This document shows positions 180 to 20,371 of a DNA stretch of 33,344 nucleotides, one piece after another. How positions within the stretch are numbered: the stretch's first letter is position 1; each line of letters starts with the position of its first letter. The notes under the pieces are model-generated. The model was not told the origin of the DNA, did not search any database, and saw only the letters and a program-made list of their open reading frames with translations. Origin of the DNA: Planctomycetota bacterium (GTDB taxonomy: Bacteria > Planctomycetota > B15-G4 > SIAN01); contig JANNXA010000002.1 in the NCBI GenBank assembly GCA_031409275.1, positions 1 to 33,344 of the forward strand. The letters run 5' to 3'. The position numbers and the translations under genes were made by a program.

Positions 180-239
180 GGACCAAGCCAAGGGTTGAGC
201 AACCCGTTTCATTCTGCCCAGAGATGGAGGCGACTTCGC

Positions 240-800: not shown

Positions 801-814
801 CTTCTCATGTGGCC

Positions 815-913: not shown

Positions 914-965
914 GAACGTTGCGTATGCGGTTGCCCCGGTACTCCAGGTATCGAACGAGATCTCG

Positions 966-1400: not shown

Positions 1401-1500
1401 ATGCGACTCGCGAACTCAGTCGGGCGTGTACTCCTCAGGTAACTAAATTCACCCGCGATGGCGTTTCGGTGCATGCCAATCACCTCTGCAACTTGACGTC

Positions 1501-1599
1501 GCCTAACAAGCCCTTGAACCTGACGAAGTCGCCGTTACGGTAGTCGGCGATTGAACAGTTCCTGACCGGCGCCTTCGCAGGTTAAGGACGACGTTAGCC
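1501..1599 (+). repeat. attC site (99 bp)
   Basis: GCCTAAC 1501-1507 and GTTAGCC 1593-1599. Arms CTTGAACCTGACGAAGTCGCCG / CGGCGCCTTCGCAGGTTAAG pair, leaving two extrahelical bases. Confidence 0.93.
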
Positions 1600-1628
1600 C
1601 GATTAACAACTCGCGCGAGGATGACTGA

Positions 1629-2171
1629 ATGAGTGCGGATGACATTGCGTTCTGCGCAGTCTGCGGTGTATCAATCGGTCAGCGAGTATCAGCTGATGAG
1701 TCGCCGTTGTGTCAGGAATGTAGTGACGCAGCTATTGACAACGACGAAGCGGCATCTTCGGGAGTTGCTGACGACCACGAGACGGCAGGACAAATCGGCG
1801 CCGCAGCGCCGATGACAAGATCGCCCGGACGAAAACGAGTCATTCCGGGCCGCAGGCGGCACTCGATGAATGACGCGGCCGCTGAACGCACAGCGCATAA
1901 TCCGATGCGGCGCCCGGCTGTCGTTATCATTGTGATAGCTGGCGTTATATTGTTTCTTATTGTGTTTGGAGTGGTGCTTCGCGGTCCGCCAGCTGGCGCG
2001 ACGCTTCGAGTCAGGTACTATCAGAATGGCAGCCTCGTCAGTGAATGGTACGGAAGAAATTTGAATGACATGGGCAATGACATGTTTGACTTTGTTGATG
2101 CACGGACGGGTCTGAATGTCGCAATCTCGAAGACTGGTGCAGTAGTTGAGGTTCTAGCTGAATCAAAGTAA
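1629..2171 (+). CDS. Cassette 3: hypothetical membrane protein with N-terminal zinc ribbon
   Basis: GAGG upstream of ATG. CAVC...CQEC, acidic linker, transmembrane segment VVIIVIAGVILFLIVFGVVL, small C-terminal beta-rich domain. The ORF fills the cassette. Confidence 0.75.
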   Translation: MSADDIAFCAVCGVSIGQRVSADESPLCQECSDAAIDNDEAASSGVADDHETAGQIGAAAPMTRSPGRKRVIPGRRRHSMNDAAAERTAHNPMRRPAVVIIVIAGVILFLIVFGVVLRGPPAGATLRVRYYQNGSLVSEWYGRNLNDMGNDMFDFVDARTGLNVAISKTGAVVEVLAESK

Positions 2172-2199
2172 CCGGCATCAACACGGCGGTTGAAAGGCG

Positions 2200-2298
2200 G
2201 GATAACATGCGCTTGAACCTGACGAAGTCGCCGATACGGTGGTCGTTGATCGGTCTGTTCCTGACCGGCGCCTTCACAGGTGAAGGACGACGTTCGGC
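2200..2298 (+). repeat. attC site (99 bp), terminal and slightly degenerate
   Basis: GGATAAC 2200-2206 and GTTCGGC 2292-2298. Same arm sequences as the other two sites with a few substitutions. Confidence 0.88.
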
Positions 2299-2443
2299 GA
2301 ACCGGAGGTCCGCCCACTGACTCGGTCTACCGAAGCGGTTGAGTCTTGCCGCTCGAGTCGAGGGTCGCGTTGCAGCTGAGCCTCCTTCTTCCCGTAGTCG
2401 CCGCGGCGATTTGTGGGGCCAGAGTGGTGCGTCGCGACCGCTG

Positions 2444-4367: not shown

Positions 4368-7253
4368 GTGAACCTGACCGACTACCACGCCAAGCTCTTT
4401 GCCTACGAGCTGACGAAGCGCTGCGCGTCCGACAGCGCGGAGAAGCTGGCGACGGCACTGGCCGATGCACAGGTCGACCTCAATCCGCATCAGGTTGATG
4501 CGGCGCTGTTCGCGTTCCAGAGCCCGTTCTCAAAAGGGGCGATCCTCGCTGACGAGGTCGGCCTCGGGAAGACGATCGAGGCAGGTCTGCTGCTGGCGCA
4601 GAAGTGGGCGGAACGCAAGCGTCGGCTCCTCGTGATCCTTCCCGCGAACCTGCGCAAGCAATGGAGCCAGGAGCTCGCCGACAAGTTCCACCTGCCGTCG
4701 GTAATCCTTGAGACTGGCACGTTCAACGAGACGGTCCGCCGCGGAAACCTGAACCCCTTCCAGCAGGACGCGATCGTCCTTTGCTCCTATCAGTTCGTGC
4801 GGACGAAAGAGCCGTACGTTCGCCAGACCGCCTGGGACCTCATCGTGATCGACGAGGCGCACCGGTTGCGAAACGTCTACCGGGCGACAAGCAAGATCGC
4901 CGTCGCCGTCAAGCAGGCGATCGCACCCTTCCCGAAGGTGCTGCTGACCGCCACGCCGCTTCAGAACTCCCTGCTCGAGCTCTACGGCCTCGTCAGCATC
5001 GTCGACGACTTCGCCTTCGGTGACCTCGAGAGCTACAAGGCGCGCTTCTCGCGGCTCACGAGCAATGACGACTTCGCCGAGTTGAAGAGCCGCCTGAAGC
5101 CACTTTGCAAGCGGACGCTCCGTCGCCAGGTGCTCGAGTACATCAAGTACACGAACCGCCACGCAATCGTGCAGGAGTTCGTGCCATCTCCGGACGAGCA
5201 GCGCCTCTACGACCTAGTCTCGCAGTACCTGCAGCAGGAGAAGCTCTACGCGCTCCCGGCGAGTCAGCGCCAGCTGGTCACGCTGATCCTGCGCAAGCTC
5301 CTCGCGTCCTCGACGTACGCGATCGCCGGCACGCTCGACGGATTGGCGCAGCGTCTCGACGCGGCGGCCGCAGCCTCTGAAGCCGTCCAATCACCGCCCG
5401 CCGAGCTCCCGGAGAACCTCGAAACGTTTGACGAGCTTGCAGACGAATGGGACGAAGACACCGACGCGCCCGAGCAATCTGTCGGCCCGAAGCTCACGCC
5501 GGAGCAGCTGGCCGAGCTGAAGCGGGAGCGCGCGCAGCTCGGCGAGTTTCTCACGCTTGCGCGGTCGATTCTCAAGAACTCGAAGGGTGAGGTCCTGCTG
5601 ACGGCGCTGCGCCGCGCCTTCGCCGCGGCGACCGAAGCGCGAAAGGCGGGCGGTTCCTCGACACTGGGCCAGAAGGCGGTGATCTTCACTGAGTCGCGGC
5701 GCACGCAGGAGTACTTGTTCCAGCTCCTCGAACAGACCGAGTTCAAGGATCGGATCGTTCTGTTCAACGGGACGAACAGCCACCCCCGATCGAAGGCAAT
5801 CCTCGCGGGCTGGCTCGATAAGCACGCAGGCACCGACCGGATCAGCGGCTCGCCGAGCGCGAACATGCGCGCAGCCCTCGTCGACCACTTCCGCGACCAC
5901 GCCGCGATCATGATCGCCACGGAAGCGGCCGCTGAGGGACTGAACCTCCAGTTTTGCAACGTCGTCGTGAACTACGACCTGCCTTGGAATCCGCAGCGCA
6001 TCGAGCAACGCATCGGCCGCTGCCACCGCTACGGCCAGGAGTTCGACGTGGTCGTCGTCAACTTCCTGAACAACAGCAACGCCGCCGACGTGCGTGTCTA
6101 CCAGCTCCTCGACGAAAAGTTCCGCCTCTTCGACGGCATCTTCGGCGCGAGCGACGAGGTGCTCGGCGCGGTCGAGTCGGGCGTCGATTTCGAGAAGCGG
6201 ATCGCGGCGATCTATCAGCGCTGCCGCACGCCCGAGCAGATCCAATTCGACTTCGATCAGCTCCAGCTCGAGCTCGAAGCGAAGATCGCCGAGGGACAGC
6301 GCGACGCGCGCGAGAAGCTGCTCGACAACTTCGACCAGGAGGTCGTCGAGAAGGTGAAACTCCAAAGCCGCGACCTCCTCGACCGATTCCAAGAGCGGCT
6401 CTGGGCTGTCACGTGCCACCAACTCGCCGGCCACGCCGACGTTGACGACCGCACGCACAGCTTCCTGCTGCGCGACAATCCGTTCCCCAGTGAGACAATC
6501 CATCCCGGCCCCTACCGCATGGGGAAGGCGGTCGACGACGCGAACACCTACCGCATCGGCCATGCGCTCGCGCAACGCGTGCTGGCGAGCGCCGTCGAGA
6601 TCGCGACGCCGTCGGCCGAGCTGACGTTCCAGTTCCGGGAGAGCGGGAAGCGGATCGCGATCCTCGAACCGCTGGTCGGCAAGAGCGGCTGGCTGCTGGC
6701 GACCCGCATCACGGTGCAAGCGATCGAGGCCGAGGATCACCTCCTGCTGATCGCGGTCGCCGACGAGGGCACCACGCTCGACGAGTCGCAAAGCCGACGC
6801 CTCTTCGACCTTCCGGCCATCGCCGGCGCGCATCGCGACGCGCCTCCTGAAGTCGAGACTCGCTTGGCGGAGGCTAAGACGCGCCGACAGCGCGATCTCG
6901 TCGCGCAGCTCATGACGCGCAACGGCCGCTGGTTCGATGCGGAGGTCGCCAAGCTCGATCGCTGGTCGGAAGACCTGAAGCTCGGACTCGAACGGGAGCT
7001 GAAGGAGCTCGACGGCGACATCCGCGGCGCACGGCGGCAGATCGCGAGCACGGTCACTCTTGACGAGAAGCTCGCCGCGCAACGCGCGCTCAAAGGGCTG
7101 GAGCAGCAGCGGAACCACAAGCGGCGCGACCTCTTCGAGGCGCAGGATCAGATCGACGCGAAGCGCGAGGAGCTGATCGGCGGAATTGAGCGGCAGCTCG
7201 CCGCAAAGCAAGAGGACCAGCCGTTGTTCGTCGTACGCTGGACGCTTCGATAG
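4368..7253 (+). CDS. SNF2-family helicase/ATPase with C-terminal coiled coil
   Basis: LADEVGLGKT, DEAH, LTATPLQN, EGLNLQ, NYDLPWNP..IEQRIGRCHRYGQ. GTG start after GAGG. Confidence 0.95.
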   Translation: MNLTDYHAKLFAYELTKRCASDSAEKLATALADAQVDLNPHQVDAALFAFQSPFSKGAILADEVGLGKTIEAGLLLAQKWAERKRRLLVILPANLRKQWSQELADKFHLPSVILETGTFNETVRRGNLNPFQQDAIVLCSYQFVRTKEPYVRQTAWDLIVIDEAHRLRNVYRATSKIAVAVKQAIAPFPKVLLTATPLQNSLLELYGLVSIVDDFAFGDLESYKARFSRLTSNDDFAELKSRLKPLCKRTLRRQVLEYIKYTNRHAIVQEFVPSPDEQRLYDLVSQYLQQEKLYALPASQRQLVTLILRKLLASSTYAIAGTLDGLAQRLDAAAAASEAVQSPPAELPENLETFDELADEWDEDTDAPEQSVGPKLTPEQLAELKRERAQLGEFLTLARSILKNSKGEVLLTALRRAFAAATEARKAGGSSTLGQKAVIFTESRRTQEYLFQLLEQTEFKDRIVLFNGTNSHPRSKAILAGWLDKHAGTDRISGSPSANMRAALVDHFRDHAAIMIATEAAAEGLNLQFCNVVVNYDLPWNPQRIEQRIGRCHRYGQEFDVVVVNFLNNSNAADVRVYQLLDEKFRLFDGIFGASDEVLGAVESGVDFEKRIAAIYQRCRTPEQIQFDFDQLQLELEAKIAEGQRDAREKLLDNFDQEVVEKVKLQSRDLLDRFQERLWAVTCHQLAGHADVDDRTHSFLLRDNPFPSETIHPGPYRMGKAVDDANTYRIGHALAQRVLASAVEIATPSAELTFQFRESGKRIAILEPLVGKSGWLLATRITVQAIEAEDHLLLIAVADEGTTLDESQSRRLFDLPAIAGAHRDAPPEVETRLAEAKTRRQRDLVAQLMTRNGRWFDAEVAKLDRWSEDLKLGLERELKELDGDIRGARRQIASTVTLDEKLAAQRALKGLEQQRNHKRRDLFEAQDQIDAKREELIGGIERQLAAKQEDQPLFVVRWTLR

Positions 7254-7270
7254 AGCGCACGGGGAAGCTG

Positions 7271-9076
7271 ATGGCCGACAAGAAGTACAAGCTTGAGCTG
7301 ACGTGGATCGGGAAAGAGAACCGGCCACGTCTCGAGCCGCGCATCCTGCTCGAAGATCCGTCGCTCTCCTATCACGCGAAGCAGCGCGTCACCGATCACG
7401 ACCACTTCGACAACATGCTGATCCAGGGCGACAACCTGCTCGCGCTCAAGGCGCTGGAGCAGCAGTTCGCAGGGAAGGTAAATTGCATCTACATCGATCC
7501 GCCGTTCAATACTCAGCAGGCCTTCGAACACTACGACGATGGCATTGAACACTCGCTCTGGCTCACATTGATGCGGGATCGACTAGTCCTGCTTCATCGC
7601 CTGCTTCACCCGAGCGGGTCGTTACTCATCCACATTGACGACAACGAACTTGGGTACCTAATTGCATTGACAGATGAGGTGTTTGGGCGTGGGAATCGAG
7701 TGTCCGTGATCACATTCAAGCAAAGCTCGGCATCGGGCCCAAAGGCAACCAATCCTGGCCTCGTAACGACGACGAACTTCATTCTGTTGTACGCAAAAGA
7801 ACGCGATCGCTGGTCGAGCAATCGAGTTTTCGTTCCGGCAGCGCGTGACGAGAGGTACTCCAAGTTCATTGACAACTATGAGGCCGGCGCAAGCGCGTGG
7901 AAACTCATCGGCCTTCGCGAAGCGTTCCTTCGAGCGGAGGGCTTTAGTAACTGGAATCAGGCGAAAGCGAAGCACGCCGACAAGATTGAGGCGAAAGTCA
8001 CCGCCTTCGTACTCGCCAATCCAGACCGCGTCGTGAGGACCGCTCGCGTGGCGTCGGGCGACGTCAATGAAGCGGCGAGGTTGGCACTTGCGGCCTCAAG
8101 CGAGACTCGCGATGTAGTTCAGATCAGTCGCCGAAGTGGCAAGGACGACTACTACTTCCTCAACGGTGAACAACTTGTCTTTTACAAAGCAAAGACACGA
8201 GTCCTTGACGGAGTGATCACCACCGCATCGCCGTTGAGCAATCTCTGGGACGACGTGTTGTCGAATAACCTTCACAATGAAGGTGGAGTGAGCTTCCCAA
8301 ACGGAAAGAAGCCGGAAGCGCTGATCAAACGAGCACTCGAGCTGACGACAAAGCCGGGCGACCTATTGTTGGACTCCTTCGCAGGCTCCGGTACCTCTGG
8401 CGCAGTAGCGCACAAGATGGGTCGTCGCTGGATCATGGTCGAACTCGGCGACCACGCCCAAACGCTCGTTGCTTTAAGATTGAAGAAGGTCGTCGATGGC
8501 GCCGACTCTGGCGGGATCTCCGAGTCCGTGAACTGGAAAGGCGGCGGCGGCTTCCGCTACTACCGCCTCGCTCCCTCGCTCCTCGAGCGCGACAAGTGGG
8601 ACAACTGGGTCGTCAGCAAGCAGTACAACAAAGAGATGCTCGCGGAGGCGGTCTGCAAGCTCGAAGGCTTCACCTACGCGCCGAGCAGCTCTCACTTCTG
8701 GATGCACGGCCAGTCGACCGAGCGCGACTTCATCTACGTCACGACGCAGTTCCTGACGCACGAGCAGCTCGCCGCCATCAGTGACGAGGTCGGACCCGAG
8801 CGAACGCTGCTCGTCTGCTGTTCGGCGTTCCGCGCCAAGCCCGACCAGTTTCCAAATCTCACGCTCAAGAAGATCCCGGCCGCCGTGCTGTCGCGCTGCG
8901 AATGGGGCAAGGACGACTACAGCCTCAACGTCGCCACCATCCAGGGTGAAGAGCCGCCGCCAGCCGTCGACGCGGCCGCGGCGGGATCGACGGAGGCACC
9001 GGCCACTGCGCGGCCACGTCGGAAGACGCGGTCGGTCCAGGAGTTCCCCTTGTTCGAGCGGAAGGGGGACCAGTGA
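7271..9076 (+). CDS. mod: Type III restriction-modification methyltransferase subunit (probable m6A)
   Basis: IQGDNLLAL, IYIDPPFNT (motif IV) before the target-recognition region and LDSFAGSGT (motif I), i.e. beta-class order. W.GGGGF tail. Stop overlaps the res start (GTGA). Confidence 0.93.
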   Translation: MADKKYKLELTWIGKENRPRLEPRILLEDPSLSYHAKQRVTDHDHFDNMLIQGDNLLALKALEQQFAGKVNCIYIDPPFNTQQAFEHYDDGIEHSLWLTLMRDRLVLLHRLLHPSGSLLIHIDDNELGYLIALTDEVFGRGNRVSVITFKQSSASGPKATNPGLVTTTNFILLYAKERDRWSSNRVFVPAARDERYSKFIDNYEAGASAWKLIGLREAFLRAEGFSNWNQAKAKHADKIEAKVTAFVLANPDRVVRTARVASGDVNEAARLALAASSETRDVVQISRRSGKDDYYFLNGEQLVFYKAKTRVLDGVITTASPLSNLWDDVLSNNLHNEGGVSFPNGKKPEALIKRALELTTKPGDLLLDSFAGSGTSGAVAHKMGRRWIMVELGDHAQTLVALRLKKVVDGADSGGISESVNWKGGGGFRYYRLAPSLLERDKWDNWVVSKQYNKEMLAEAVCKLEGFTYAPSSSHFWMHGQSTERDFIYVTTQFLTHEQLAAISDEVGPERTLLVCCSAFRAKPDQFPNLTLKKIPAAVLSRCEWGKDDYSLNVATIQGEEPPPAVDAAAAGSTEAPATARPRRKTRSVQEFPLFERKGDQ

Positions 9077-11805
9077 ACCCGACGCTCAACGCCATTGCGA
9101 GTCGGCTCAGCCTGCGCGCGCCGCAGCGCCGCTCGCTCGAGATCCTCGGTCGGCTGCTGGAACTCTCGAATCCCACGAAGAACGTCGATCTCGCCGCGTC
9201 GCTCGCGAACCTGCGCGCGGAGTTCCCGACGCTCGTCGACTTCGAGCGGGAATTCCTTTCGGTCTGCTTCGCGCTCGCGACTGGCGTCGGCAAGACCCGC
9301 CTGATGGGCGCGTTCATCGCCTACCTCGCGCTTACCGGCAAAAGCCGCCACTTCTTCGTGCTCGCGCCGAACCTGACCATCTACGACAAGCTCATCGCCG
9401 ACTTCAAGCCGGGGACATCGAAGTACGTCTTCCAAGGCATAGCCGAGTTCGTCACCGCGCCGCCCGTGGTGGTGACGGGAGAAAACTACGAGGCCGGTTA
9501 CGGCGTCCGTGCCGCGCTCGCTCCCGGACATCTGCCGCTGCGCGGTTCGTTCGACGAGGCGATCCACGTCAACGTCTTCAATATCTCGAAGATCAACTCC
9601 GATGTCCGCTCGTCGCAGCGTGGCGGCAATCCGCCACGGATCAAGCGCCTCGCCGAGTACATCGGCGAGTCATACTTCGAATACCTTGCAAACCTCCCCG
9701 ACCTCGTCCTACTGATGGACGAGTCGCACCGCTACCGCGCCGATGCCGGCACGAAGGCGATCAACGAGCTCAAGCCCATCCTCGGACTGGAGCTGACGGC
9801 GACGCCCTTCACCGAGTCGGCCAAGGGGCCGGTGCCGTTCAAGAATGTGATCTACAGCTACCCGCTCGCGCAAGCCATTGCGGACGGCTTCGTCAAGGAA
9901 CCGGCGGTCGCGACCCGCAAGGACTTCGACGCCAGCAAGCTCACTCCGGAGCAGCTCGAGCGGATCAAGATCGAGGACGCCGTGCGCCTGCACGAGCAGG
10001 TGAAGACCGACCTCAGGATCTACGCCAACCAGAACGACAAGGCGATCGTCAAACCGTTCATGCTCGTCATTGCCCGCGACACCGAGCACGCTGGTCGCCT
10101 GATCGAGGCGTTCAAGTCGCCGTCCTTCTTCGATGGGCGCTACGCCGACAAGGTGATCCAGGTCCACTCGGCGCTGACCGGCGAAGAGAAGGACGAGACG
10201 GTGCAGCGGCTCCTCGCCGTCGAGTCGGCCAGCGAGCCGACCGAGATCGTCATCCACGTCAACATGCTGAAGGAAGGCTGGGACGTCACCAACCTCTACA
10301 CCATCGTCCCGCTGCGCGCCGCCAATGCGCGGACGCTGATCGAGCAGTCGATCGGCCGCGGTCTTCGCCTTCCGTACGGCAAGCGCGTGGGCGTTCCGGC
10401 CGTCGATCGCCTCACGATTGTCGCGCACGACCGCTTCCAGGAGATCGTCGACGAGGCGAATCGCGGCGACTCGATCATCAAGAACGTGCAGACGATCGTG
10501 CTCGACCCGGATGGCGCGCCGCTGCCGAAGCAGATCATCGAGGTGGCGCCGATGATCGATGCGATCGTCTCGGGAAGGCCGTCCATCGCGCTTCCGCTGT
10601 CGTCGACTGGGGCGGCGCACGATGAGACGGTCGCGGCGTTGTTCCAGAAGCCGGGGGAGCTGGAGCTCGCGCGCGCGACGCTGTCGGCCATTCACGCGCA
10701 GTCGGGCGTCCGCACTTCATCTGAACTGCTCACCCCGGAGAACCAGGCGAAGCTCCTCGCGAACGCGATGTCGCTCCGCCCAGTGCAACCGAGCCTTCCC
10801 TATGCCAAGGTCGACGATCCGATGGCGGTCGTCGCCGAAGCGACGAATCTCCACCTCAAGCACACGATCGACATCCCGCGGATCACGGTCGTTCCGATCG
10901 ACGAGGTCGTGGCGGGATTCACGCCGTTCGATCTCGACTGCTCTGGTCTCCAGCTTCAGCCCGTCGCCGAGGACATCCTCATCCAGCACCTGCAGAGCCA
11001 TCAGCAGGAACAGCTGTCTGTAACCGATCACGGCGTCGCCGAAGTACGGCTCGAGAACTACATCGTGCGCGCGCTGGTTGACTATGCGGAGGTCGACTAC
11101 GACTCGAACGCCGACCTCCTGTATCGACTCGCCGGTCAGGCGATCGCCCACCTGCGCTCGTACCTGAAGAACGACGACGAAGTCCGCAACGTGCTGCTCT
11201 ATCACCAGTCACGGATCGGAGCCCTGATCCAAGCGCAGCTCGAACGTCACCGATTCGAACGCACTGCGGGCTTCGAGCCGAAGGTGACCAAAGGGTTCAC
11301 GCCACTGCGCACAACTCCTTATTCGATCGTTCCCGGCGACCCCCCGAGGGAATTCCGAGCTCCTGTCGAGGCCAAGAGAAACATCGATCAGCTGCTTTTC
11401 TGCGGCTTCAAGAAGTGCCTCTATCCGCTCCAGCGTTTCCAATCCGATCCGGAGCGGCGCTTCGCCGTCGTCCTGGAGAACGACGGCTCGGCACTCAAGT
11501 GGGTCAAGCCCGCGAAGGGCACGATCGCAATCACGCTGCGTGGCGGCTCGCAGTACGAACCCGATTTCGTGGTCGAGACCAGGACGGCGCGATTCCTCGT
11601 CGAGGTCAAGCGATCCGATCAGCTCGCAGAAGATGGCGTGGTCGCACGCGCCCGTGCCGCCACGATGTGGTGCAAGCATGCAACCGACCATACGAGGACC
11701 ACGGATGGAAAGCGGTGGGGCTACGCGCTGATCCGTGACACCGCCATCAAGGAGAACATGAGCTTCGATGGGCTGGTGGCGGAGTTTGAGCAACACGCGA
11801 CGTGA
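9073..11805 (+). CDS. res: Type III restriction endonuclease subunit
   Basis: ATGVGKT, DESHRY, LTATP, MLKEGWD, QSIGRGLR helicase motifs. C-terminal YEPDFVVE...LVEVK nuclease motif. Confidence 0.93.
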   Translation: MNPTLNAIASRLSLRAPQRRSLEILGRLLELSNPTKNVDLAASLANLRAEFPTLVDFEREFLSVCFALATGVGKTRLMGAFIAYLALTGKSRHFFVLAPNLTIYDKLIADFKPGTSKYVFQGIAEFVTAPPVVVTGENYEAGYGVRAALAPGHLPLRGSFDEAIHVNVFNISKINSDVRSSQRGGNPPRIKRLAEYIGESYFEYLANLPDLVLLMDESHRYRADAGTKAINELKPILGLELTATPFTESAKGPVPFKNVIYSYPLAQAIADGFVKEPAVATRKDFDASKLTPEQLERIKIEDAVRLHEQVKTDLRIYANQNDKAIVKPFMLVIARDTEHAGRLIEAFKSPSFFDGRYADKVIQVHSALTGEEKDETVQRLLAVESASEPTEIVIHVNMLKEGWDVTNLYTIVPLRAANARTLIEQSIGRGLRLPYGKRVGVPAVDRLTIVAHDRFQEIVDEANRGDSIIKNVQTIVLDPDGAPLPKQIIEVAPMIDAIVSGRPSIALPLSSTGAAHDETVAALFQKPGELELARATLSAIHAQSGVRTSSELLTPENQAKLLANAMSLRPVQPSLPYAKVDDPMAVVAEATNLHLKHTIDIPRITVVPIDEVVAGFTPFDLDCSGLQLQPVAEDILIQHLQSHQQEQLSVTDHGVAEVRLENYIVRALVDYAEVDYDSNADLLYRLAGQAIAHLRSYLKNDDEVRNVLLYHQSRIGALIQAQLERHRFERTAGFEPKVTKGFTPLRTTPYSIVPGDPPREFRAPVEAKRNIDQLLFCGFKKCLYPLQRFQSDPERRFAVVLENDGSALKWVKPAKGTIAITLRGGSQYEPDFVVETRTARFLVEVKRSDQLAEDGVVARARAATMWCKHATDHTRTTDGKRWGYALIRDTAIKENMSFDGLVAEFEQHAT

Positions 11806-11887
11806 CCGGAAGGGAGCGTGGCCCGGGGCGGTTACTGGTGACGAGCGTGAAGCCGGGGTCGGAGTTCCTCGACGATCTGGGGCGCAA

Positions 11888-14800
11888 GTGACTCTCACGA
11901 CGGAGATCGCGGTTCGCTGCCTTTCCCTCGATCTCGAGATCCATCCCCGCGACGAGACGATCGATCAGATCGGCGCGGTGCGCGGCGATCGCGAGGAGTC
12001 GTTCCGGTGGGAGCGCTCGCGGTCGAAGGAGGATCTATCGAAGGCGCTGGAGCGACTTGACGACTTCGCGCGCGGCAGCGAGTTTCTGCTCGGCCACAAC
12101 CTGATCGCCTTCGACGCGCCGCGCTTGCGAGCGGTCGCACCCGGGCTCCGCCTACTCGAGCTGCCGATGCTCGATACGTTGCGGCTCAACCCGCTCGCGT
12201 TCCCCAAGCACCCGTATCACAGCCTCGTCAAGCACTACCAGGATGGAAAGTTGCTGACGGGGCGACGCAACGACCCCGAGGCCGACGCGCGCATCGCGCT
12301 CCAGCTCTTCCGCGAGCAGTGCGATCGATTCGCAGCACTCGTGGGCGAGGCGCCAGACCTGCTTGCGGCTTGGCACCAGCTCACCGGGGTGGGCGTCGAG
12401 GGCGCTGGCTTCGACCGCCTCTTCGCGGAGATCCGCCGAGCACGCCGTCCCTCGACAGGCGAGGCTGCCGCTGCGATCGCGGGCTGGCTCGATGGGCGCG
12501 CATGTCGGACGCGCGCAGCGAAGCTGCTGGACCGATCGGACGACGAGGCCGACTGGCCGTTGGCATTTGCGCTCGCGTGGATCTCGGTCGCCGGCGGCAA
12601 CTCGGTGCTGGCGCCCTGGGTGCTGCATCAGTTCCCGGCCGCTGCGGAGCGGATCGCCGAGCTGCGCGATCGCGCGTGCCAGGAGAGCGGCTGCGCGTGG
12701 TGCCGCGAACATTTCGACTCGCGGCGCTCGCTCCAACGCTGGTTCAAGTTCGCGGACTTTCGGCAGGAACCGAAGGGGCCGGACGGCGCGCCGCTCCAGA
12801 AGGCCATCATCGACGCCGCGATGGCCGGGGACCACGTACTGGGGATCCTCCCGACCGGCACCGGCAAGTCGATCTGCTACCAGTTGCCGGCGCTCGCCCG
12901 GTTCGAGCATCGTGGCGCGCTCACGGTGGTCATCTCGCCGCTCGTCGCGTTGATGACTGACCAAGTGGACGGCCTTCAGCGCCGCGGAATCGCGAGCGCC
13001 GCCGCGATCACGGGGCTGTTGTCGATGCCCGAGCGCGGCGCTGCGCTCGATCGCGTCCGGCTCGGCGACGTCGCAATCCTGCTCGTATCACCGGAACAGT
13101 TGCGCAGCCGCGCGGTACGCAGCGTCCTCGACCAGCGCGAGATTGCCGCGTGGGTGCTCGATGAGGCGCACTGCCTCTCGAAATGGGGTCCCGACTTTCG
13201 CCCCGACTACCGCTACGTCGGCCGCTTCATCCGTGATCGGGCGCGCGGCCGCCCGTCGCCGCCGCTCCTCGCGCTCACGGCGACGGCGAAACGCGACGTC
13301 GTCGAGGAGATCGTCGCGTACTTCCGCAAGGAGCTGGCGCTCGAGATGCGGGTCTTCGACGGCGGCGCGGAGCGCACCAACCTCGCATTCGAGGTCGTGA
13401 AGACCGAACCGGAGCGTCGGATCGCCGACATCGAGCAGTTGTTGCGATCGGATCTCCTCGACCACGGCAAGGGCGGAGCGATCATCTACTGCTCGACGCG
13501 CCGGCGCACGGAGGAGGTCGCGGCAGCACTGAGCGAACGCGGGATCGGGGCGGCGCACTACCACGCCGGGCTGACGCCGGAGCTGAAGAAGGATCTCCTG
13601 AAGCGCTTCATCGGCGGCGAGCTGCGCGTGATGACGGCGACGAACGCCTTCGGCATGGGAATCGACAAGGACGACGTGCGACTCGTGATCCACGCCGATC
13701 TCCCGGGCTCGCTCGAGAACTATCTCCAGGAGGCCGGTCGTGCCGGGCGCGACGAGAAGCCCGCCCGCTGCGTGCTGATGTGGAACGCGGACGACGTCGA
13801 GCGGCAGTTCCGGATGTCGGAACGGTCGAATCTCTCGCGACGCGAGATCGAGGCGATCCTCCGGGCAATCGAGCGGATCGACAAGCGGCGCCGGCTCGGG
13901 GGCGAGATCGTCGCAACTACCGGTGAAATCCTCGCGCACGAGAGCGACGGCGAGCTGCTGCGCGACGGTGTCACGGACGACACGCGCGTCCGTACCGCGA
14001 TCTCGTGGCTCGAAGAGGCAAAGCTGCTCGAGCGAAACGAGAATCGCGTCGAGGTCTTCCCGGCGTCGCTCCGCGTGAAGGACCTCGACGAGGCGAAGCG
14101 CGCCCTCGTGGCGCGTGGCGTGGTCGAACCGTGGCTTGGCGCGATGACTGCCATCGTGCGCGAGCTGCTCTCGTCGCCGCCCGATCGCGGCCTTTCGACC
14201 GACGAGCTGATGGCCGTCGCCGGCATGACCTCCGACCAGATCAAGAAGGCGCTCCGCGATCTCGAGAGATGCGGGATCGCGACCGATGACACCCAGCTCA
14301 CGGCATTCGTCCATGTCGGGGTCGATCGCTCCTCGAAGTCGAGGCTCGATGAGGTCGTCGCCCTCGAGCGCGCACTTCTCGATCTCCTGTCCGAACTGGC
14401 TCCGGACGCCGGAAAGGGCGAGACTGTCCCGCTCTACATCCGGCGCGTTACGCAGTCGCTGAAGGACTCGGGGTTCGAGCGCACCCTGCCAGAGCACGTC
14501 TGGCGGCTCTTGCGGAGCATCGCGGAAGACGGGCGTGAGGAGAGCGGGGCAGCGGGAAGCTTCGGCCTCCGGCGCGACGACTCGGAGGTGGCCCGGGTCG
14601 AGCTGCGCCGCGATTGGTCGGCCGTGCGCGATCTCGCCGCACGACGCCGTGCCGGTGCGGGTCGCCTGCTCGACCACTTCCTCTCGAATCTGCCGGAACG
14701 CGCGCGCGGCCTCGACCAGCGCGTTGAGACGACGCTCGGTGCGCTGCGGCGCGCGCTTGAGGACGACCTCCTTCTGAAGGCACAGGCGCGCGACCTCTCG

Positions 14801-17107
14801 CGACTTCTCGATCGCTCCTTGCTGTGGCTCCACGAGCAGGAGGTGCTCCGGCTCGGCAAGGGACTGACGATCTTCTGCCCGGCGATGACGATCCGGCTCC
14901 CGGCCGAGCGGCGCCGGTTCGCTGCGGACGACTTCGAGCCGCTCAGCGCCCACTACCGCGAGAAACGGGCGCAGATCCATGTCATGGCGGCCTATGCCTC
15001 AAGAGGCATCGCGGCGATCGCGGACGCGCTGCGGCTCGTCCATGACTACTTCCATCTTGTTCGAGCCGCCTTCCTCGCGAAGTGGCTGCCGGGCTCGGAG
15101 GAAGAGATCGCACGACCGACGACCCGTGAGTCGTGGAACGCGATCGTCGAGGAGCTGAGTCCAGTCCAGCGCCGGATCGTCGCCGACGAGCGTGAGCGCG
15201 CGAACGTCCTGGTGCTCGCCGGCCCCGGCTCGGGGAAGACCCGCGTCCTGGTGCATCGCATCGCGTACCTCGTTCGCGTGCGGCGCGAGGAGCCGCGCGG
15301 AATCCTGGCACTCGCCTACAACCGCCACGCGGCCGTCGCAATTCGCCAGCGACTTGAAGCGCTGATCGGGGATGACGCCCGCGGAGTCACCGTTCTCACC
15401 TGCCACGCACTGGCGATGCGGCTCGCCGGCGTTGCACTCGACGGAGCGCGCGGGCACATCGACGAGGACTTCTTCGACGCGATCCTCGAACGCGCCACCG
15501 CTCTGCTGCGTGGCGATGGCATGTCGGCCGACGATGCCGATGAACAGCGATCTCGCCTCCTCGCCGGCTTCCGATGGATCTTGGTCGACGAGTACCAGGA
15601 CATCGCTGCGCCGCAGTACGACCTCGTCGCGGCACTCGCCGGCCGGACGCTGAACGACAAGGAGGATGACCGGCGTCTCAACCTCTTCGCCGTTGGCGAC
15701 GACGACCAGAACATCTACTCGTTCAAAGGCGCGTCCGTCGAGTTCATCCGCCGCTTCGAGACCGACTATCAGGCCAAGTCGGCCCACCTGATCGAGAACT
15801 ATCGCTCGACGGCGCACATCATTGCGGCCTCGAATGCGCTGATCGCGCCGGCAGCGGCGCGGATGAAGGCCGACCGTCCGATCACGATCAACCGAGATCG
15901 CCGCGCACAGCCGGCAGGTGGTGATTGGGAGACGCTCGACCCGGTCGCGCGCGGCAAGGTGCAACTGCTGCCGGTCGGTCCTGATCCATGCACCCAAGCA
16001 GTCGCCGTCGTGGCGGAGCTGCGACGGCTTGCGTCGGTCGCTCCGAAGTGGGACTGGTCGCAGGTCGCCGTGATCGCGCCCCAGTGGCGGTTCCTCGAAC
16101 CGGTGCGCAACGAGTGCGCTCGGCTCGGCATCGCCGCACAGATGGCGGACGAGGAGCTTCCGAAACTCTTCCGAATGCGCGAGGGCGACGCATTCCTCAC
16201 CTGGATGCGCGGGCTGCGTCCGGCACCGTTCAATGCAGCCGTCGTGCAGGGCTGGATCGAGAACCAGAATCGTGGACCGTGGTGGTCCTGCGTGCGCGAG
16301 GCGGTAGCGGAGTACGTCGCCGAGCACCGCCTGAGCGCGACAACGGGGGCCGAGACACGGTCGGGTGAGTCGCCTCCGCGTGCGGCATTGGCGATGCCGA
16401 TCGATCACTTCGTCGAATGGTTCCACGAGTGGTGCCGGGAGCTCCGGCGGAGAACGAAGGGGCTGCTCCTGCTGACCGCCCATCGCGCGAAGGGGCTCGA
16501 GTTCGACCACGTCGTCGTACTCGACGGAAACTGGGATCGTCGCGGCGGCGGCGAGGATCCAGACGCCGCTCGCCGGCTCTACTACGTTGCGATGACGCGG
16601 GCGCGCCGAACGCTGCTCCTCGCCCGTGGCGACCGAAACGACGATGGGCGACGAGGTTCCCAAAGCGTCGTCGACGAGCCGTTTCCGTTCGACGCATTCG
16701 TCGGCTGCCCTGCGATCATCCGTCGCGAGGCCACGCCGTTGCCTGCTCCAGCGCCGGAGCTTCGTCGAAGCGTGCGGACTTTGACGCTCGCCGAGGTCGA
16801 TCTCGACTTCGCTGGGCGCCACGCTCCCGATCACCCGATTCATCGTGCGATTGCGGAGCTGAGGTGCGGCGATCCACTTGAGGCGGTTCGCGAGGTCGAT
16901 CGGATCGTCGTGCAAGATCGATCGGGTCGGACGGTCGGCCGACTGGCGTCAAAGTTCGAGGTGCCGGTCGATCAGCGGATTCGCGCTTCCGTCGCCGCGA
17001 TCGTCGTTCGCACGCGACGTGACTGTCGGCCTGAGTTCGAGCGGTCGATTCGAGCGGAGCGGTGGGAGCTGGTGGTGCCCGAGATCACGATTGATCCGAA
17101 TCCGTAG
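11888..17107 (+). CDS. Multidomain DEDD-like exonuclease / RecQ-family helicase / UvrD-Rep-family helicase fusion (about 1740 aa)
   Basis: N-terminal DLE...GHNLIAFD...DTL...D. RecQ motifs PTGTGKS, DEAHC.S.WG.DFRP.Y, TATA, FGMGID, QEAGRAGRD. SF1 motifs AGPGSGKT, DEYQD, VGDDDQNIY, NYRS, TAHRAKGLEF, YVAMTRAR. The start (GTG 11888) is uncertain. Confidence 0.9.
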   Translation: MTLTTEIAVRCLSLDLEIHPRDETIDQIGAVRGDREESFRWERSRSKEDLSKALERLDDFARGSEFLLGHNLIAFDAPRLRAVAPGLRLLELPMLDTLRLNPLAFPKHPYHSLVKHYQDGKLLTGRRNDPEADARIALQLFREQCDRFAALVGEAPDLLAAWHQLTGVGVEGAGFDRLFAEIRRARRPSTGEAAAAIAGWLDGRACRTRAAKLLDRSDDEADWPLAFALAWISVAGGNSVLAPWVLHQFPAAAERIAELRDRACQESGCAWCREHFDSRRSLQRWFKFADFRQEPKGPDGAPLQKAIIDAAMAGDHVLGILPTGTGKSICYQLPALARFEHRGALTVVISPLVALMTDQVDGLQRRGIASAAAITGLLSMPERGAALDRVRLGDVAILLVSPEQLRSRAVRSVLDQREIAAWVLDEAHCLSKWGPDFRPDYRYVGRFIRDRARGRPSPPLLALTATAKRDVVEEIVAYFRKELALEMRVFDGGAERTNLAFEVVKTEPERRIADIEQLLRSDLLDHGKGGAIIYCSTRRRTEEVAAALSERGIGAAHYHAGLTPELKKDLLKRFIGGELRVMTATNAFGMGIDKDDVRLVIHADLPGSLENYLQEAGRAGRDEKPARCVLMWNADDVERQFRMSERSNLSRREIEAILRAIERIDKRRRLGGEIVATTGEILAHESDGELLRDGVTDDTRVRTAISWLEEAKLLERNENRVEVFPASLRVKDLDEAKRALVARGVVEPWLGAMTAIVRELLSSPPDRGLSTDELMAVAGMTSDQIKKALRDLERCGIATDDTQLTAFVHVGVDRSSKSRLDEVVALERALLDLLSELAPDAGKGETVPLYIRRVTQSLKDSGFERTLPEHVWRLLRSIAEDGREESGAAGSFGLRRDDSEVARVELRRDWSAVRDLAARRRAGAGRLLDHFLSNLPERARGLDQRVETTLGALRRALEDDLLLKAQARDLSRLLDRSLLWLHEQEVLRLGKGLTIFCPAMTIRLPAERRRFAADDFEPLSAHYREKRAQIHVMAAYASRGIAAIADALRLVHDYFHLVRAAFLAKWLPGSEEEIARPTTRESWNAIVEELSPVQRRIVADERERANVLVLAGPGSGKTRVLVHRIAYLVRVRREEPRGILALAYNRHAAVAIRQRLEALIGDDARGVTVLTCHALAMRLAGVALDGARGHIDEDFFDAILERATALLRGDGMSADDADEQRSRLLAGFRWILVDEYQDIAAPQYDLVAALAGRTLNDKEDDRRLNLFAVGDDDQNIYSFKGASVEFIRRFETDYQAKSAHLIENYRSTAHIIAASNALIAPAAARMKADRPITINRDRRAQPAGGDWETLDPVARGKVQLLPVGPDPCTQAVAVVAELRRLASVAPKWDWSQVAVIAPQWRFLEPVRNECARLGIAAQMADEELPKLFRMREGDAFLTWMRGLRPAPFNAAVVQGWIENQNRGPWWSCVREAVAEYVAEHRLSATTGAETRSGESPPRAALAMPIDHFVEWFHEWCRELRRRTKGLLLLTAHRAKGLEFDHVVVLDGNWDRRGGGEDPDAARRLYYVAMTRARRTLLLARGDRNDDGRRGSQSVVDEPFPFDAFVGCPAIIRREATPLPAPAPELRRSVRTLTLAEVDLDFAGRHAPDHPIHRAIAELRCGDPLEAVREVDRIVVQDRSGRTVGRLASKFEVPVDQRIRASVAAIVVRTRRDCRPEFERSIRAERWELVVPEITIDPNP

Positions 17108-17224: not shown

Positions 17225-18469
17225 ATGCCCTGGGAACCCTTCCACCTCACGCGAGAGCAGATCTACGCAGCCGTCTGGTCCGAGCCGATGCGGGACGCGG
17301 CGAAGCAGTTCGGCATCTCGGACGTGGCGCTCGGGAAGATCTGCCGGAAGCTCGGAGTGCCGCGGCCGAAGCAGGGCTACTGGCTGCGGCGGCGCGCTGG
17401 GCAGACGCCGTCTCGAACCGAGCTGCCGCCGCTCGAGTCGGGGCAGCTCTCCGAGCATGTCGGCCAGCGATGGCGTGAGCAGGAGAATCCGGCAGCGTGT
17501 GACCCGGCTGGCGTGGTGGCCGACAGCGATCACACCGACCCCGTCCGCGATGTGATCGTCGAGGAGCCGATCGAGGTTCCGGCGACGCTTGACCATGCGC
17601 ACCCGCTCGTCCGCCAGACTGCCGCCGTTTATCGGCGACCGCCCTCGTACCGCCCTGCAGGAAACGACGACAAGGTGCGGTACCTCGACCTCAGCGTGTC
17701 CACCGCCGCCCTGGACCGCGCACTGCGGATCATGGACGGCCTGCTACGAGCCTTCGAATCCAAAGGCATGCCGGTGCACGTCGGCAGCGATGCCCCGCAG
17801 GGCGAAGCTCAGCCACCTCGTCCGGGTTGGCTGCCCAGGAACGCCACGCACGTCAAGGTGGACGGCGTCTGGATCGCATTTCAGATCTTCGAGTACCACA
17901 ACATCCGTCAGGTGCTGCCCGAGCCCTACAAGGGGATCACCGGAGCGCGGCTCAAGGAGTTCTTGGAAACGAGGCGACCACAGCGATCGAAAGTGCCGAA
18001 CGGATTGCTCGCCATCCGCGTCAGCCATCGCTGGGCCTACGGCTGGGAGCCGCTGTGCGAAGACGGGAAGCGAACTCGGATCGAGGATCGGCTGGGCCGG
18101 TTTCTTCCAGCGCTTCGGGCAGCCGCCGAGCGCGTCAAGAAAGCTGACGCTGAACACGAAGCGCGCGAGATGGCAGCACGCGAAGCTGAGAAGCGGGGCT
18201 GGGAAGAAGAAAAACGTCGCCGCAAGGACGAGGCGGATGTCGCGGCCCTGCGGACGATGCTCGCCGACTGGCGCGAGGTGCGAGACATCCGGGCGTACGT
18301 CGACGAGGCGCGGGCGATCGTCGCGGCCGGCGGGCTGGTGATCCGGGAGGAGTCGACTTTGGCCGAGTTCATCCGCTGGGCGACGGCACGGGCGGACCAG
18401 ATCGATCCGCTGCGGGCGCTTCGGGAGGAGGTTCGAGAGAGGGGGAGTGCCGCCAGCCGAACGTCGTGA
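17225..18469 (+). CDS. Hypothetical protein with N-terminal HTH-like domain and C-terminal charged coiled coil
   Basis: AGGAG upstream of ATG 17225. LTREQIYAAVWSEPM...AKQFGISDVALGKICRKLGVPRP..GYW pattern. EAEKR..EEEKRRR helix. Confidence 0.8.
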   Translation: MPWEPFHLTREQIYAAVWSEPMRDAAKQFGISDVALGKICRKLGVPRPKQGYWLRRRAGQTPSRTELPPLESGQLSEHVGQRWREQENPAACDPAGVVADSDHTDPVRDVIVEEPIEVPATLDHAHPLVRQTAAVYRRPPSYRPAGNDDKVRYLDLSVSTAALDRALRIMDGLLRAFESKGMPVHVGSDAPQGEAQPPRPGWLPRNATHVKVDGVWIAFQIFEYHNIRQVLPEPYKGITGARLKEFLETRRPQRSKVPNGLLAIRVSHRWAYGWEPLCEDGKRTRIEDRLGRFLPALRAAAERVKKADAEHEAREMAAREAEKRGWEEEKRRRKDEADVAALRTMLADWREVRDIRAYVDEARAIVAAGGLVIREESTLAEFIRWATARADQIDPLRALREEVRERGSAASRTS

Positions 18470-18762: not shown

Positions 18763-19845
18763 TCAGTCGGGAATGTCCATGTCATCGTGCGACACGACGT
18801 TCGCAAACTCGATCGCGCCACCGTCGATGCCGGGGAGCACCCACCAGTGCAAGCGCCCAGCCGCTGGCGCACCGTTCTTGAGTGCGCACCGCCACGCCTG
18901 GGCGCCGTCACGCGCACGAACTCGCTGCGGCGCGGCGCCCTTGTCGCCGTCGCGCAGCCAGTGAACCTGCAGACCAGCGATGCTGGAGGCGCGTCCCGAT
19001 GCGACGTGGGCGCAGACTTCCGAGATGCGCGACACTCCGATGCTCTTGAGCTTGCCGACCGACTCGACGAAGCGCGGTCCGACCCGCAGTAGCTTCAGCG
19101 GAAACTGCTTCGAATCGGCGAGCGGGTAGAGGCGACCGTAGGCATCGAGAATCTCGGCAAGGAAACGTACCGGCGACGAGAGCGGATGGTCCTGCGCTTC
19201 GGCATCGCGCACTCCAGTCGTGCGGAGCTTCTTGCGCAGCGCCTGCGTAGTCTGTCGCGCGTCGCTGAGCTCCTCTTTCTGGCGCTCGACGGTCTTCTCG
19301 AGTTCATCGCAGTGGCGGGCCAAGTGCCGACTTTCCCTCGCGAGCTCGTCGATTCGAGCGCGAGCCGTTTCGATGGTTTCGGCGCTGAGTCGAGGTGCTG
19401 CTGCGGGGAGCGGTTCAGTTGCCTCGAGGCCAAGCAGCGAAACGACGCGATGCGCGACCTGTGCAACATCCTCGGGGAAGTGGATGAACAGGAGCGGGTG
19501 CTCGTATGGACTCGAGTCCCGCGCGAGGCCCGGCCACCAGATTCTCACGGCACCGCCGTAGACATCCAGGAGCGGCGGAAGTGCCGCCTTGAGCCGCCAC
19601 GTCGGATCGCCGGTCGGAATCACGACCACGCGACCGTTCGGGCCCACCGTGTTCGCGAGCCACTCCGCCGAGATCGGTGGTTCGCGGTCGCCCGAGAGGG
19701 TTGTCAAGGCAATCACCGGGTCGGGTCGATGCGGATCGAGGACATCGTCGCGAACGAACGCCTCGACTTCCTCTGCGATGAGGCGGCGCGGTTCGAAGCG
19801 CCCTGGGGCTCTTGCCAAGGAACCGGATTCGGAATCGAAGTTCAT
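18763..19845 (-). CDS. Hypothetical protein: N-terminal alpha/beta domain, coiled coil, RelE-like C-terminal domain
   Basis: GGAG precedes ATG 19845. Heptad-rich ARARIDELARES...LRKKLR. C-terminal VHWLR...AWRC...GRLHWW...IEFANVVSHDD. The toxin-fold call is inference. Confidence 0.7.
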   Translation of the reverse strand: MNFDSESGSLARAPGRFEPRRLIAEEVEAFVRDDVLDPHRPDPVIALTTLSGDREPPISAEWLANTVGPNGRVVVIPTGDPTWRLKAALPPLLDVYGGAVRIWWPGLARDSSPYEHPLLFIHFPEDVAQVAHRVVSLLGLEATEPLPAAAPRLSAETIETARARIDELARESRHLARHCDELEKTVERQKEELSDARQTTQALRKKLRTTGVRDAEAQDHPLSSPVRFLAEILDAYGRLYPLADSKQFPLKLLRVGPRFVESVGKLKSIGVSRISEVCAHVASGRASSIAGLQVHWLRDGDKGAAPQRVRARDGAQAWRCALKNGAPAAGRLHWWVLPGIDGGAIEFANVVSHDDMDIPD

Positions 19846-20023
19846 GACTACGTTCTCCATGTAATGCGGAATAGGCCTCGAAACAGCCATGAGCGGGTAC
19901 GGCGAGCTCAAAGTGATTAATCCTTGCTGTCCAACGGTCGGACGAGAGAACACGCTCCGAACTAGAAAATCCCGATGTCGTCGAGGTGGACGAACGCTGG
20001 AAGCCTGGGCACCTCCGGCTTGG

Positions 20024-20371
20024 CTACGACTTCGATGCGTCAGCAGCAGCCGGAGCACTTCCAAGCCCGAACAGATCTGTGCAGGCAACCAAGATCCGAA
20101 GGAATGCTCCGCACGCGGATGCGAGCGACGCTCTGACGGAGGCCGAGGTGACGGCCTCCCGGTCCGCTGCGATTGCTTGAACGACGGCGCTCAGCTCATC
20201 GAAGGAGATGATGACCCGGTAGCAGTGATTCGCGAGACCGCTGAAGTCGGGCACAGAGCCAGACTCGAAGACGATCGCCTTTGCCGCAAGATCAACACGA
20301 ATCCTCGGCGCCCTCAAGTCCCTCGGATTCCATCCGCAATCAGCAACAGCACCTCGTCGTGTAACGATCAT
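20024..20371 (-). CDS. Hypothetical protein
   Basis: AGGAG 6 nt upstream of ATG. Globular-looking sequence. Co-oriented with 18763-19845. Confidence 0.6.
   Translation of the reverse strand: MIVTRRGAVADCGWNPRDLRAPRIRVDLAAKAIVFESGSVPDFSGLANHCYRVIISFDELSAVVQAIAADREAVTSASVRASLASACGAFLRILVACTDLFGLGSAPAAADASKS

What the first reader, a model, noticed from the sequence alone, without database searches (positions are those of the whole stretch)
4368..17107. SNF2 - Mod - Res - exonuclease/RecQ/UvrD operon: type III R-M extended with three extra helicase motors
Seen: four co-directional, closely spaced genes (17-bp gap, GTGA overlap, about 82-bp gap) with four intact helicase/ATPase modules, two nuclease-type domains and a methyltransferase. 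Established: canonical type III systems need only Mod and Res. Inference: a composite anti-phage system in which the SNF2 ATPase and the double helicase remodel, unwind or degrade DNA after or alongside restriction. I know of no mechanistic description of this four-gene unit. It is the strongest candidate for an undescribed system in this window.
Basis: partly seen in the sequence, partly recalled or inferred. Interest (0 to 1): 0.8.

Follow-up and report, generated by a model that had tools for sequence, protein, structure and literature searches.

The report
SNF2-type III restriction plus passenger helicase
The four genes are real and intact but form two separate units: a three-gene type III restriction system with an extra SNF2 motor, a kind reported in 2021 whose motor likely helps without being a fixed subunit, and an exonuclease-double-helicase gene that usually stands alone and likely just landed next to it.

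Summary
In detail: four intact, co-directional genes (SNF2, Mod, Res, exonuclease-RecQ-UvrD fusion). The four-gene system does not hold.

The fusion had this SNF2 or Res nearby in 0 of 80 GTDB loci. Res had the fusion nearby in 0 of 80 metagenome loci. The fusion shared no plasmid with them (17 records against 33 and 45) and none of 300 same-phylum genomes.

SNF2-Mod-Res is a real unit: 33 of 35 SNF2 loci carry a type III Mod. Murray et al. 2021 (PMC8259958) reported this arrangement, and the window's SNF2 is 43% identical over its full length to the SNF2 at the E. coli NCTC86 locus I take to be Eco86II. Here it sits on a different Mod/Res subfamily.

The SNF2 is RapA-shaped, has swapped among three unrelated Mod/Res subfamilies, and its operon traps other defence genes. 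It is likely a loosely coupled helper motor.

The fusion belongs to a large, solitary family with a DnaQ-fold domain carrying Asn in place of the catalytic His. I found no paper on it.

This scan had already reported both parts separately on other DNA.

The parts
4368..7253 (+). RapA-like SWI2/SNF2 ATPase (961 aa), the accessory third gene of the type III R-M unit; no nuclease motif; lacks RapA's N-terminal region
   Evidence: Pfam SNF2-rel_dom + Helicase_C; RapA is the best PDB hit by sequence and by fold; 43% identical over 979 columns to the SNF2 at the NCTC86 locus
7271..9076 (+). Type III Mod, beta-class amino-methyltransferase (DPPF before FAGSG), 601 aa; m6A or m4C not determined
   Evidence: PF01555; PADLOC PDLC03636 E 7e-197; GC3 0.75 against 0.83-0.86 in the other three genes
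9073..11805 (+). Type III Res: SF2 ATPase plus C-terminal PD-(D/E)XK nuclease, 910 aa, PADLOC subfamily PDLC03648
11888..17107 (+). Stand-alone fusion: DnaQ-fold exonuclease-like domain (aa ~10-190), CxxC, RecQ motor (~300-660), unassigned conserved middle (~660-1090), UvrD motor (~1093-1580), unassigned C-terminal domain (~1620-1739). A passenger, not a core gene
   Evidence: synteny

Best explanation
The stretch holds two units: a three-gene type III restriction-modification system (SNF2-Mod-Res), and an exonuclease-RecQ-UvrD gene that likely arrived separately at its 3' end. SHOWN: gene content, intact motifs, the tight SNF2-Mod-Res linkage, the independence of the fusion, the RapA-like fold and the partner swapping of the SNF2. 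FROM ESTABLISHED KNOWLEDGE (type III enzymes, PMC8259958 introduction): a Mod2-Res1 complex methylates one strand of a short asymmetric site. It cuts unmethylated DNA about 25-27 bp downstream after ATP-triggered one-dimensional communication between two inversely oriented sites. INFERRED (about 35% for this particular role): the SNF2 is a double-stranded DNA translocase that works on the DNA rather than as a fixed subunit. It would clear bound proteins (RNA polymerase, nucleoid or phage DNA-coating proteins) or recycle Mod2-Res after cutting, so that restriction works inside cells. INFERRED: the fusion would act alone on DNA ends or forks, its two motors unwinding while the DnaQ-fold domain trims or holds a 3' end, in defence or repair. 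It may use ends made by any restriction enzyme but has no dedicated link to this one.
For: The fusion is independent. (1) 0 of 80 fusion loci had this SNF2 or Res; 63 had >=7 kb upstream. (2) 0 of 80 Res loci had the fusion; 46 had >=1.5 kb downstream. (3) None of 17 fusion plasmids is among the 33 Res or 45 SNF2 plasmids. (4) In 300 same-phylum genomes the 4 with the fusion are not among the 29 with SNF2 or the 28 with Res. (5) The genome's own second fusion gene (contig C18) lies among metabolic genes next to a transposase. The three-gene unit is real. Mod was present in 57 of 57 Res loci with >=2 kb upstream, and SNF2 in 28 of 34 with >=7 kb and 21 of 24 with >=9 kb. 33 of 35 SNF2-anchored genome loci have a type III Mod and 31 have Mod and Res. 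All 23 plasmids with a full-length Res also have the SNF2. 7 of 7 further SNF2 plasmids opened have Mod-Res, one in the order Mod-Res-SNF2. Coupling looks loose. The SNF2 pairs with three Res subfamilies (PDLC03648, 03647, 03654). The window's Res has no significant BLAST match to the NCTC86 Res (E 0.17) while the two SNF2s are 43% identical. On the SNF2 tree the PDLC03647 partner needs at least 5 changes across starred branches, and holding partner groups together is rejected (p-AU 5e-100 and 2e-7; 32 of the 62 rows). Murray et al. found the ATPase unnecessary for methylation and saw none of its peptides in a partially purified Eco86II fraction that cut DNA.
Against: No function was tested here. 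The roadblock/recycling role rests on likeness to RapA; the SNF2 lacks RapA's N-terminal ~120 residues and the whole-chain TM-score is only 0.38-0.54. The partner label is still clustered on the tree (9 changes against 19.9 in shuffles), so some co-adaptation is possible. The SNF2 is not universal: 6 of 34 Res loci with >=7 kb upstream lacked it (long cargo may hide it), L231 lacks it over ~11.8 kb upstream of Mod, and seven half-length actinobacterial Res hits have none. One fusion locus (L030) does lie just behind a Mod-Res of another subfamily.
Confidence: 0.8

Rival explanations
1. The four genes are one composite system: Res cuts, then the fusion unwinds and degrades from the cut ends, and SNF2 loads or remodels the complex.
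For: Tight co-directional spacing. L030 has Abi-Mod-Res-small gene-fusion, with a different type III subfamily. The enzyme logic is plausible.
Against: 0 of 80, 0 of 80, 0 of 17 and 0 of 4 co-occurrences. The genes 3' of Res and on both sides of the fusion are highly variable.
Confidence: 0.07
2. The SNF2 is a true third subunit that binds Mod2-Res transiently and turns sliding into processive translocation, or remodels the complex in vivo.
For: Near-exclusive linkage to type III Mod-Res (33 of 35), kept when the gene order changes. Partner labels are clustered on the tree.
Against: It partners with Mod/Res subfamilies that share only motifs and has swapped repeatedly. It was not detected in active Eco86II (PMC8259958).
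Confidence: 0.3
3. The SNF2 serves a guard or back-up layer: it senses inhibition of restriction or stalled complexes and activates the cargo effectors lodged between the genes, or it merely acts as the conserved 5' arm for cassette exchange.
For: 27 of 32 loci with both SNF2 and Mod have >=850 bp between them. Genes inserted between the core genes (SNF2-Mod and Mod-Res gaps) include AbiD-, IetA-, HerA-, PtuA-, PDC-S02/04/05/13-, AIPR-, Abi_C- and DUF2130-type genes.
Against: Cargo-free loci such as this window keep an intact SNF2. The cargo families are too varied for one activation mechanism. The ATPase motifs are invariant, which a mere recombination arm would not need.
Confidence: 0.2
4. 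The fusion is a DNA-repair or fork-processing enzyme (WRN-like) with no role in defence.
For: Most neighbours are metabolic or unrelated. Only 11 of 134 scanned flanking proteins hit PADLOC at E<=1e-35, and two of these are a generic kinase and an RtcR-like regulator. Full-length relatives are about 50-59% identical across distant phyla.
Against: Patchy presence (4 of 300 same-phylum genomes, 1 of 40 relatives), plasmid copies, and places beside CBASS, AbiE, Hhe, GmrSD, HipA-like and R-M genes. No background rate was measured for these neighbours.
Confidence: 0.45

Closest known systems
Type III R-M systems with an extra helicase-like ATPase 5' of mod (Eco86II of E. coli NCTC86, BspHIV; Murray et al. 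2021, PMC8259958, whole text read)
   Same: Order ATPase-mod-res; the ATPase has SF2 motifs and no nuclease motif; 43% identity over the full length to the NCTC86 gene.
   Different: The window's Mod (601 aa) and Res (910 aa) belong to another subfamily than the NCTC86 pair (1040 and 1126 aa). The methylated base (m4C there) is unknown here. I identified the NCTC86 locus as Eco86II from the record title and the paper's description; the text gives no locus tag for it.
Classical type III R-M (EcoP15I, EcoP1I)
   Same: Beta-class Mod plus Res with SF2 ATPase and PD-(D/E)XK nuclease, adjacent and overlapping.
   Different: Extra SNF2 gene. Res is only distantly related to the NCBIfam PRK15483 model (28 bits against a cut-off of 564).
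RapA and its defence relatives DrmD (DISARM I), BrxHII (BREX type 3), HmaA
   Same: SWI2/SNF2 core followed by RapA-type C-terminal domains; RapA is the top structural hit along the whole chain. PMC12839542 section 27 describes this architecture for BrxHII.
   Different: RapA's N-terminal region is missing (PMC12839542 calls it a Tudor pair). Below the DrmD cut-off (656 against 950 bits). No other DISARM, BREX or Hma gene among the seven proteins scanned in PADLOC.
WRN (exonuclease-RecQ; recalled, not tested) and exonuclease-DinG of Staphylococcus aureus (PDB 9ii8)
   Same: A DnaQ-fold domain at the N-terminus of a helicase; Z 15.0, rmsd 4.5, 234 residues aligned to 9ii8_A.
   Different: The fusion has a second, UvrD motor and two unassigned domains, and N-x4-D in place of H-x4-D in the third exonuclease motif.

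Membership tests
Type III R-M | Beta-class Mod with DPPY/F and FxGxG | tested here: met
   DPPF at 76, FAGSG at 370; MTase_III E 7e-197
Type III R-M | Adjacent Res with Walker A/B and a C-terminal PD-(D/E)XK motif | tested here: met
   GVGKT 71, DESH 216, PD...EVK 830-846, invariant in alignment A2; REase_III E 8e-233
Type III R-M | One-strand methylation of an asymmetric site; ATP-dependent cutting needing two inverted sites | not testable with these tools
   needs methylome and biochemistry
Three-gene type III group of Murray et al. 2021 | Extra SF2 ATPase gene 5' of mod, without a nuclease motif, not homologous to Res | tested here: met
   position; Pfam shows no nuclease family; own-genome tblastn gives no SNF2-Res cross-match at 1e-10
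Three-gene type III group of Murray et al. 2021 | The ATPase is a close homologue of the Eco86II accessory gene | tested here: met
   43% identity, 979 columns, E 0; the locus was identified as Eco86II by inference
Three-gene type III group of Murray et al. 2021 | Mod/Res homologous to Eco86II (applies to the narrower Eco86II subfamily only) | tested here: not met
   Mod matches at motifs only (39% over 90 aa); Res E 0.17
Three-gene type III group of Murray et al. 2021 | m4C methylation (property of the two characterised members) | not testable with these tools
   DPPF does not tell m4C from m6A
DISARM class I | DrmD at cut-off plus DrmA, B, C and DrmMI in the locus | tested here: not met
   656 against 950 bits; neighbours' best hits are MTase_III and REase_III
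Four-gene SNF2-Mod-Res-fusion system (proposed) | Recurrent co-occurrence of all four genes | tested here: not met
DnaQ/DEDD exonuclease (fusion N-terminus) | DnaQ fold with four acidic residues | tested here: met
   pLDDT 90; Z 11-15 to DinG, Cap18 and epsilon; D15/E17 in 93 of 96 rows (3 gaps), D76 and D133 in 96 of 96
DnaQ/DEDD exonuclease (fusion N-terminus) | General-base His or Tyr before the last Asp (H-x4-D in DEDDh; motif recalled) | tested here: not met
   Asn128 in 95 of 96 rows; the conserved His111 or His116 might substitute, untested
RecQ and UvrD motors (fusion) | Walker A/B and motif VI intact | tested here: met
   K327, D425, E426, K1117, D1234, E1235 in 96 of 96 rows; TIGR00614 above cut-off

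The most novel reading that the evidence does not exclude
The exonuclease-RecQ-UvrD protein is an undescribed one-gene anti-phage machine: two motors and a non-canonical N-x4-D nuclease in one chain that chews DNA ends left by any restriction enzyme. The SNF2 is a plug-and-play motor that clears proteins off DNA for at least three unrelated type III lineages, so in this genome the four genes do cooperate as cut-then-degrade.
Probability: 0.15. Interest if true: 0.7.

Novelty: new member of a known kind. Interest (0 to 1): 0.3.

Why it matters
The four-gene system is not real as a conserved unit, so it should not be chased as one. Two open questions remain testable. First, the job of the type III accessory SNF2, left open in 2021: this window is a cargo-free example, and the partner swapping shown here predicts that SNF2s will cross-complement between unrelated Mod-Res pairs. 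The SNF2 is common (29 of 300 genomes in this phylum sample; 258 of 5426 E. coli genomes), and the gaps in its operon are a ready source of candidate defence genes. Second, the solitary exonuclease-RecQ-UvrD family (at least 2463 clusters) has no study that I could find.

Tried and rejected
1. Four-gene unit: rejected by reciprocal synteny (see evidence).
2. DISARM, BREX, Hma, Dpd, Gabija, PsyrT: the PADLOC hits cover shared helicase cores only.
3. A conserved partner for the fusion: none. The recurring neighbour clusters are metabolic genes shared by related genomes.
4. Fusion middle region and C-terminal domain: no Pfam or PDB profile match. The ESM Atlas returned only the family's own clusters and one UvrD cluster (query P0005).
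5. Fusion in phages (tblastn) and E. coli genomes (DNA-level, low sensitivity): no match.
6. Promoter/terminator scan: chance level.
7. Codon use does not separate the fusion from SNF2/Res (GC3 0.83 against 0.85-0.86), so composition gives no support for separate arrival.
8. The AU test on all 62 rows did not finish. It was run on 32 hand-picked rows without the two long branches, LG+G4, with groups named after seeing the tree, so the p-values are somewhat overstated.
9. All-against-all BLAST of 8740 ORFs timed out and was redone on 1945 filtered ORFs; that heuristic gene caller mislabels some genes.
10. Of 148 flanking ORFs, 134 were scanned; I left out repeats of one shared neighbourhood and mis-called frames.
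11. No complex prediction was sent, because the report does not claim binding.
12. Paper searches did not surface Murray 2021, which does not use the word SNF2; one search found it by enzyme name. Searches found no paper on the fusion. Most subscription papers are outside the library.

Full report
OBSERVATION. Family scans call them an SNF2 ATPase, a type III Mod, a type III Res and a protein with RecQ and UvrD motors. The window is contig C2 of genome G000, at 65% GC against about 69-70% for most large contigs. It also holds integron-like repeats, a transposase and other defence-like genes, so it looks like an accessory island. I did not determine the organism.

DOES THE FUSION TRAVEL WITH THE OTHER THREE? 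No. I used the family-specific middle region so that ordinary RecQ and UvrD genes would not be counted. (a) GTDB: the best 80 of 590 confirmed loci. None had this SNF2 or Res; 67 had >=1.5 kb and 63 had >=7 kb upstream. With a wider panel of type III proteins, 2 of 80 had a Mod. In L030 an Abi-Mod-Res block of another subfamily lies just upstream, at a contig start. In L096 the Mod is on the other strand, 6.7 kb away. (b) Metagenomes: the best 80 of 496 Res loci. None had the fusion; 46 had >=1.5 kb and 37 had >=3 kb downstream. (c) Plasmids: 17 records with the fusion, 33 with Res and 45 with the SNF2; the 17 are in neither other list. I opened 8 of the 17 and none had the trio; one lies beside a type I R-M system. 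(d) 300 same-phylum genomes: SNF2 in 29, Res in 28, fusion in 4, with no overlap between the 4 and the others. With only 4 carriers this last test is weak on its own. (e) G000 has a second, 1912-aa fusion gene on C18 among metabolic genes and next to a transposase, and the one relative of 40 with a full-length fusion has it beside a sulfatase and a glycoside hydrolase.

DO SNF2, MOD AND RES TRAVEL TOGETHER? Yes. From Res: Mod in 57 of 57 loci with >=2 kb upstream; SNF2 in 28 of 34 with >=7 kb and 21 of 24 with >=9 kb. All 23 plasmids with a full-length Res have the SNF2 (15 are near-identical Salmonella copies), while seven half-length actinobacterial Res hits do not. From SNF2: I fetched 35 of the 37 match rows outside G000, leaving out two short second fragments. 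33 have a type III Mod and 31 have Mod and Res; two end at a contig edge after Mod, one is a SNF2 fragment, and one long-branch copy has neither. Seven SNF2 plasmids missing from the Res list all had Mod-Res of other subfamilies, one with the SNF2 moved behind Res (four of them scanned). Some Res loci have lost the SNF2 or keep a fragment (L231, L232, L235).

IS THIS KNOWN? Yes. Earlier notes of this scan pointed to Murray et al. 2021, which I found and read whole. Its figures are not held, and its two supplements (accession list, raw gel) were listed but not read. It reports type III systems with an extra helicase-like ATPase 5' of mod in more than 500 genomes, of unknown function, not needed for methylation and not detected in a partially purified Eco86II fraction that cut DNA. 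The E. coli NCTC86 record has SNF2-Mod-Res. Its SNF2 is 43% identical to the window's along the whole chain, but its Mod and Res are not close. So the window is a member of the three-gene group on a different Mod/Res subfamily.

WHAT I CAN ADD ON THE SNF2. Its model (pLDDT 79, pTM 0.66) matches RapA best, along the whole chain, without RapA's N-terminal region. PMC12839542 (passages and section 27 read) describes the same RapA-type layout for BREX BrxHII. On a 62-row tree the window's nearest SNF2s (67-69% identical) sit with a different Res subfamily, and partner type changes at least 5 times across well-supported branches. Constraining partners together is rejected on a 32-row subset (caveats under Tried and rejected). 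A protein that stays with type III systems while exchanging unrelated partners more likely works through DNA than through a fixed interface; that step is inference. 27 of 32 loci carry >=850 bp between SNF2 and Mod, and the genes inserted between the core genes are often known or candidate defence genes. This matches the embedding theme of bioRxiv 10.1101/2024.01.29.577857 (passages read). The window has no such cargo, and the fusion is best read as a passenger at the 3' end.

THE FUSION ITSELF. It belongs to a large family (2463 clusters at E<=1e-20 among 7990 scored), about 50-59% identical across distant phyla. The N-terminal 300 residues fold with high confidence into a DnaQ-type exonuclease with four conserved acidic residues but Asn at the His position, so nuclease activity is likely but unproven. 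Both motors are fully conserved. Eleven of 134 flanking proteins hit PADLOC, with no background measured, so defence and repair both remain open (I put them near even). Searches found no paper on it. Earlier notes of this scan describe the same family as a solitary mobile gene; my counts agree and were made before I saw them.

OTHER PAPERS. Seen as passages only, with nothing on this unit: PMC10853773, PMC2292703, PMC11232893, PMC11090510, PMC3710099. PMC12757443 lists a type III REase, a Mod and an SNF2 helicase together as cargo of a Cronobacter element.

VERDICT. The genes are real and the grouping is wrong. The three-gene core is a new member of a described but unexplained group, and the fourth gene is an independent, unstudied family. 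Interest 0.3.

Noticed in passing
window 156-2302: Three full and one partial ~97-nt attC-like repeats (81-84% alike, hairpin-forming) separate short ORFs, like an integron cassette array. Similar repeats lie on contigs C22, C55 and C50, and an integron integrase above the TIGR02249 cut-off is on C27.
   Followed up: partly
window 18763-20088 (-): ORF with a weak match to PADLOC HEC-07, a RelE-type candidate defence protein (E 5e-16; family described).
   Followed up: no
window 17225-18469 (+): 414-aa ORF right after the fusion with an N-terminal RWP-RK-like helix-turn-helix (E 2e-6, below cut-off); not a conserved neighbour of the fusion.
   Followed up: partly
window 22134-22949 (+), 26321-27778 (-), 27649-30024 (-), 30612-31313 (-): HSDR_N/MmeI_N-like nuclease, rve integrase-core protein, DUF7309/DUF6930 protein and DprA-like protein, consistent with an accessory island.
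   Followed up: no
window 7271-9076: Mod has lower GC3 (0.75) and codon adaptation (0.56) than SNF2, Res and the fusion (0.83-0.86; 0.68-0.73), suggesting a more recent exchange of mod or its specificity region.
   Followed up: partly
L013:10668-16406 (G000 contig C18): Second, 1912-aa copy of the fusion family in the same genome, 36% identical, next to a transposase.
   Followed up: partly
L023, L024, L189-L191, L194 (just 5' of the SNF2): A small helix-turn-helix gene or a WYL gene often overlaps or abuts the SNF2 start (annotated mads1-like in some E. coli records); none is evident in the window.
   Followed up: no
L246:10905-21668: E. coli island at tRNA-Phe with an AAA ATPase and S8 peptidase pair (IetAS-like) lodged between SNF2 and Mod.
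   Followed up: no
L158:4589-6940 and 10 other Res loci (cluster c1): A ~780-aa SMC/AAA-type ATPase with no PADLOC hit at 1e-40 is among the commonest inserts between SNF2 and Mod; DUF2130 and AIPR inserts also recur. These are candidate defence genes.
   Followed up: partly
L030:195-11187: Abi_2-Mod-Res (another type III subfamily)-104 aa-fusion: the only other type III/fusion neighbourhood seen; the contig begins just upstream.
   Followed up: partly
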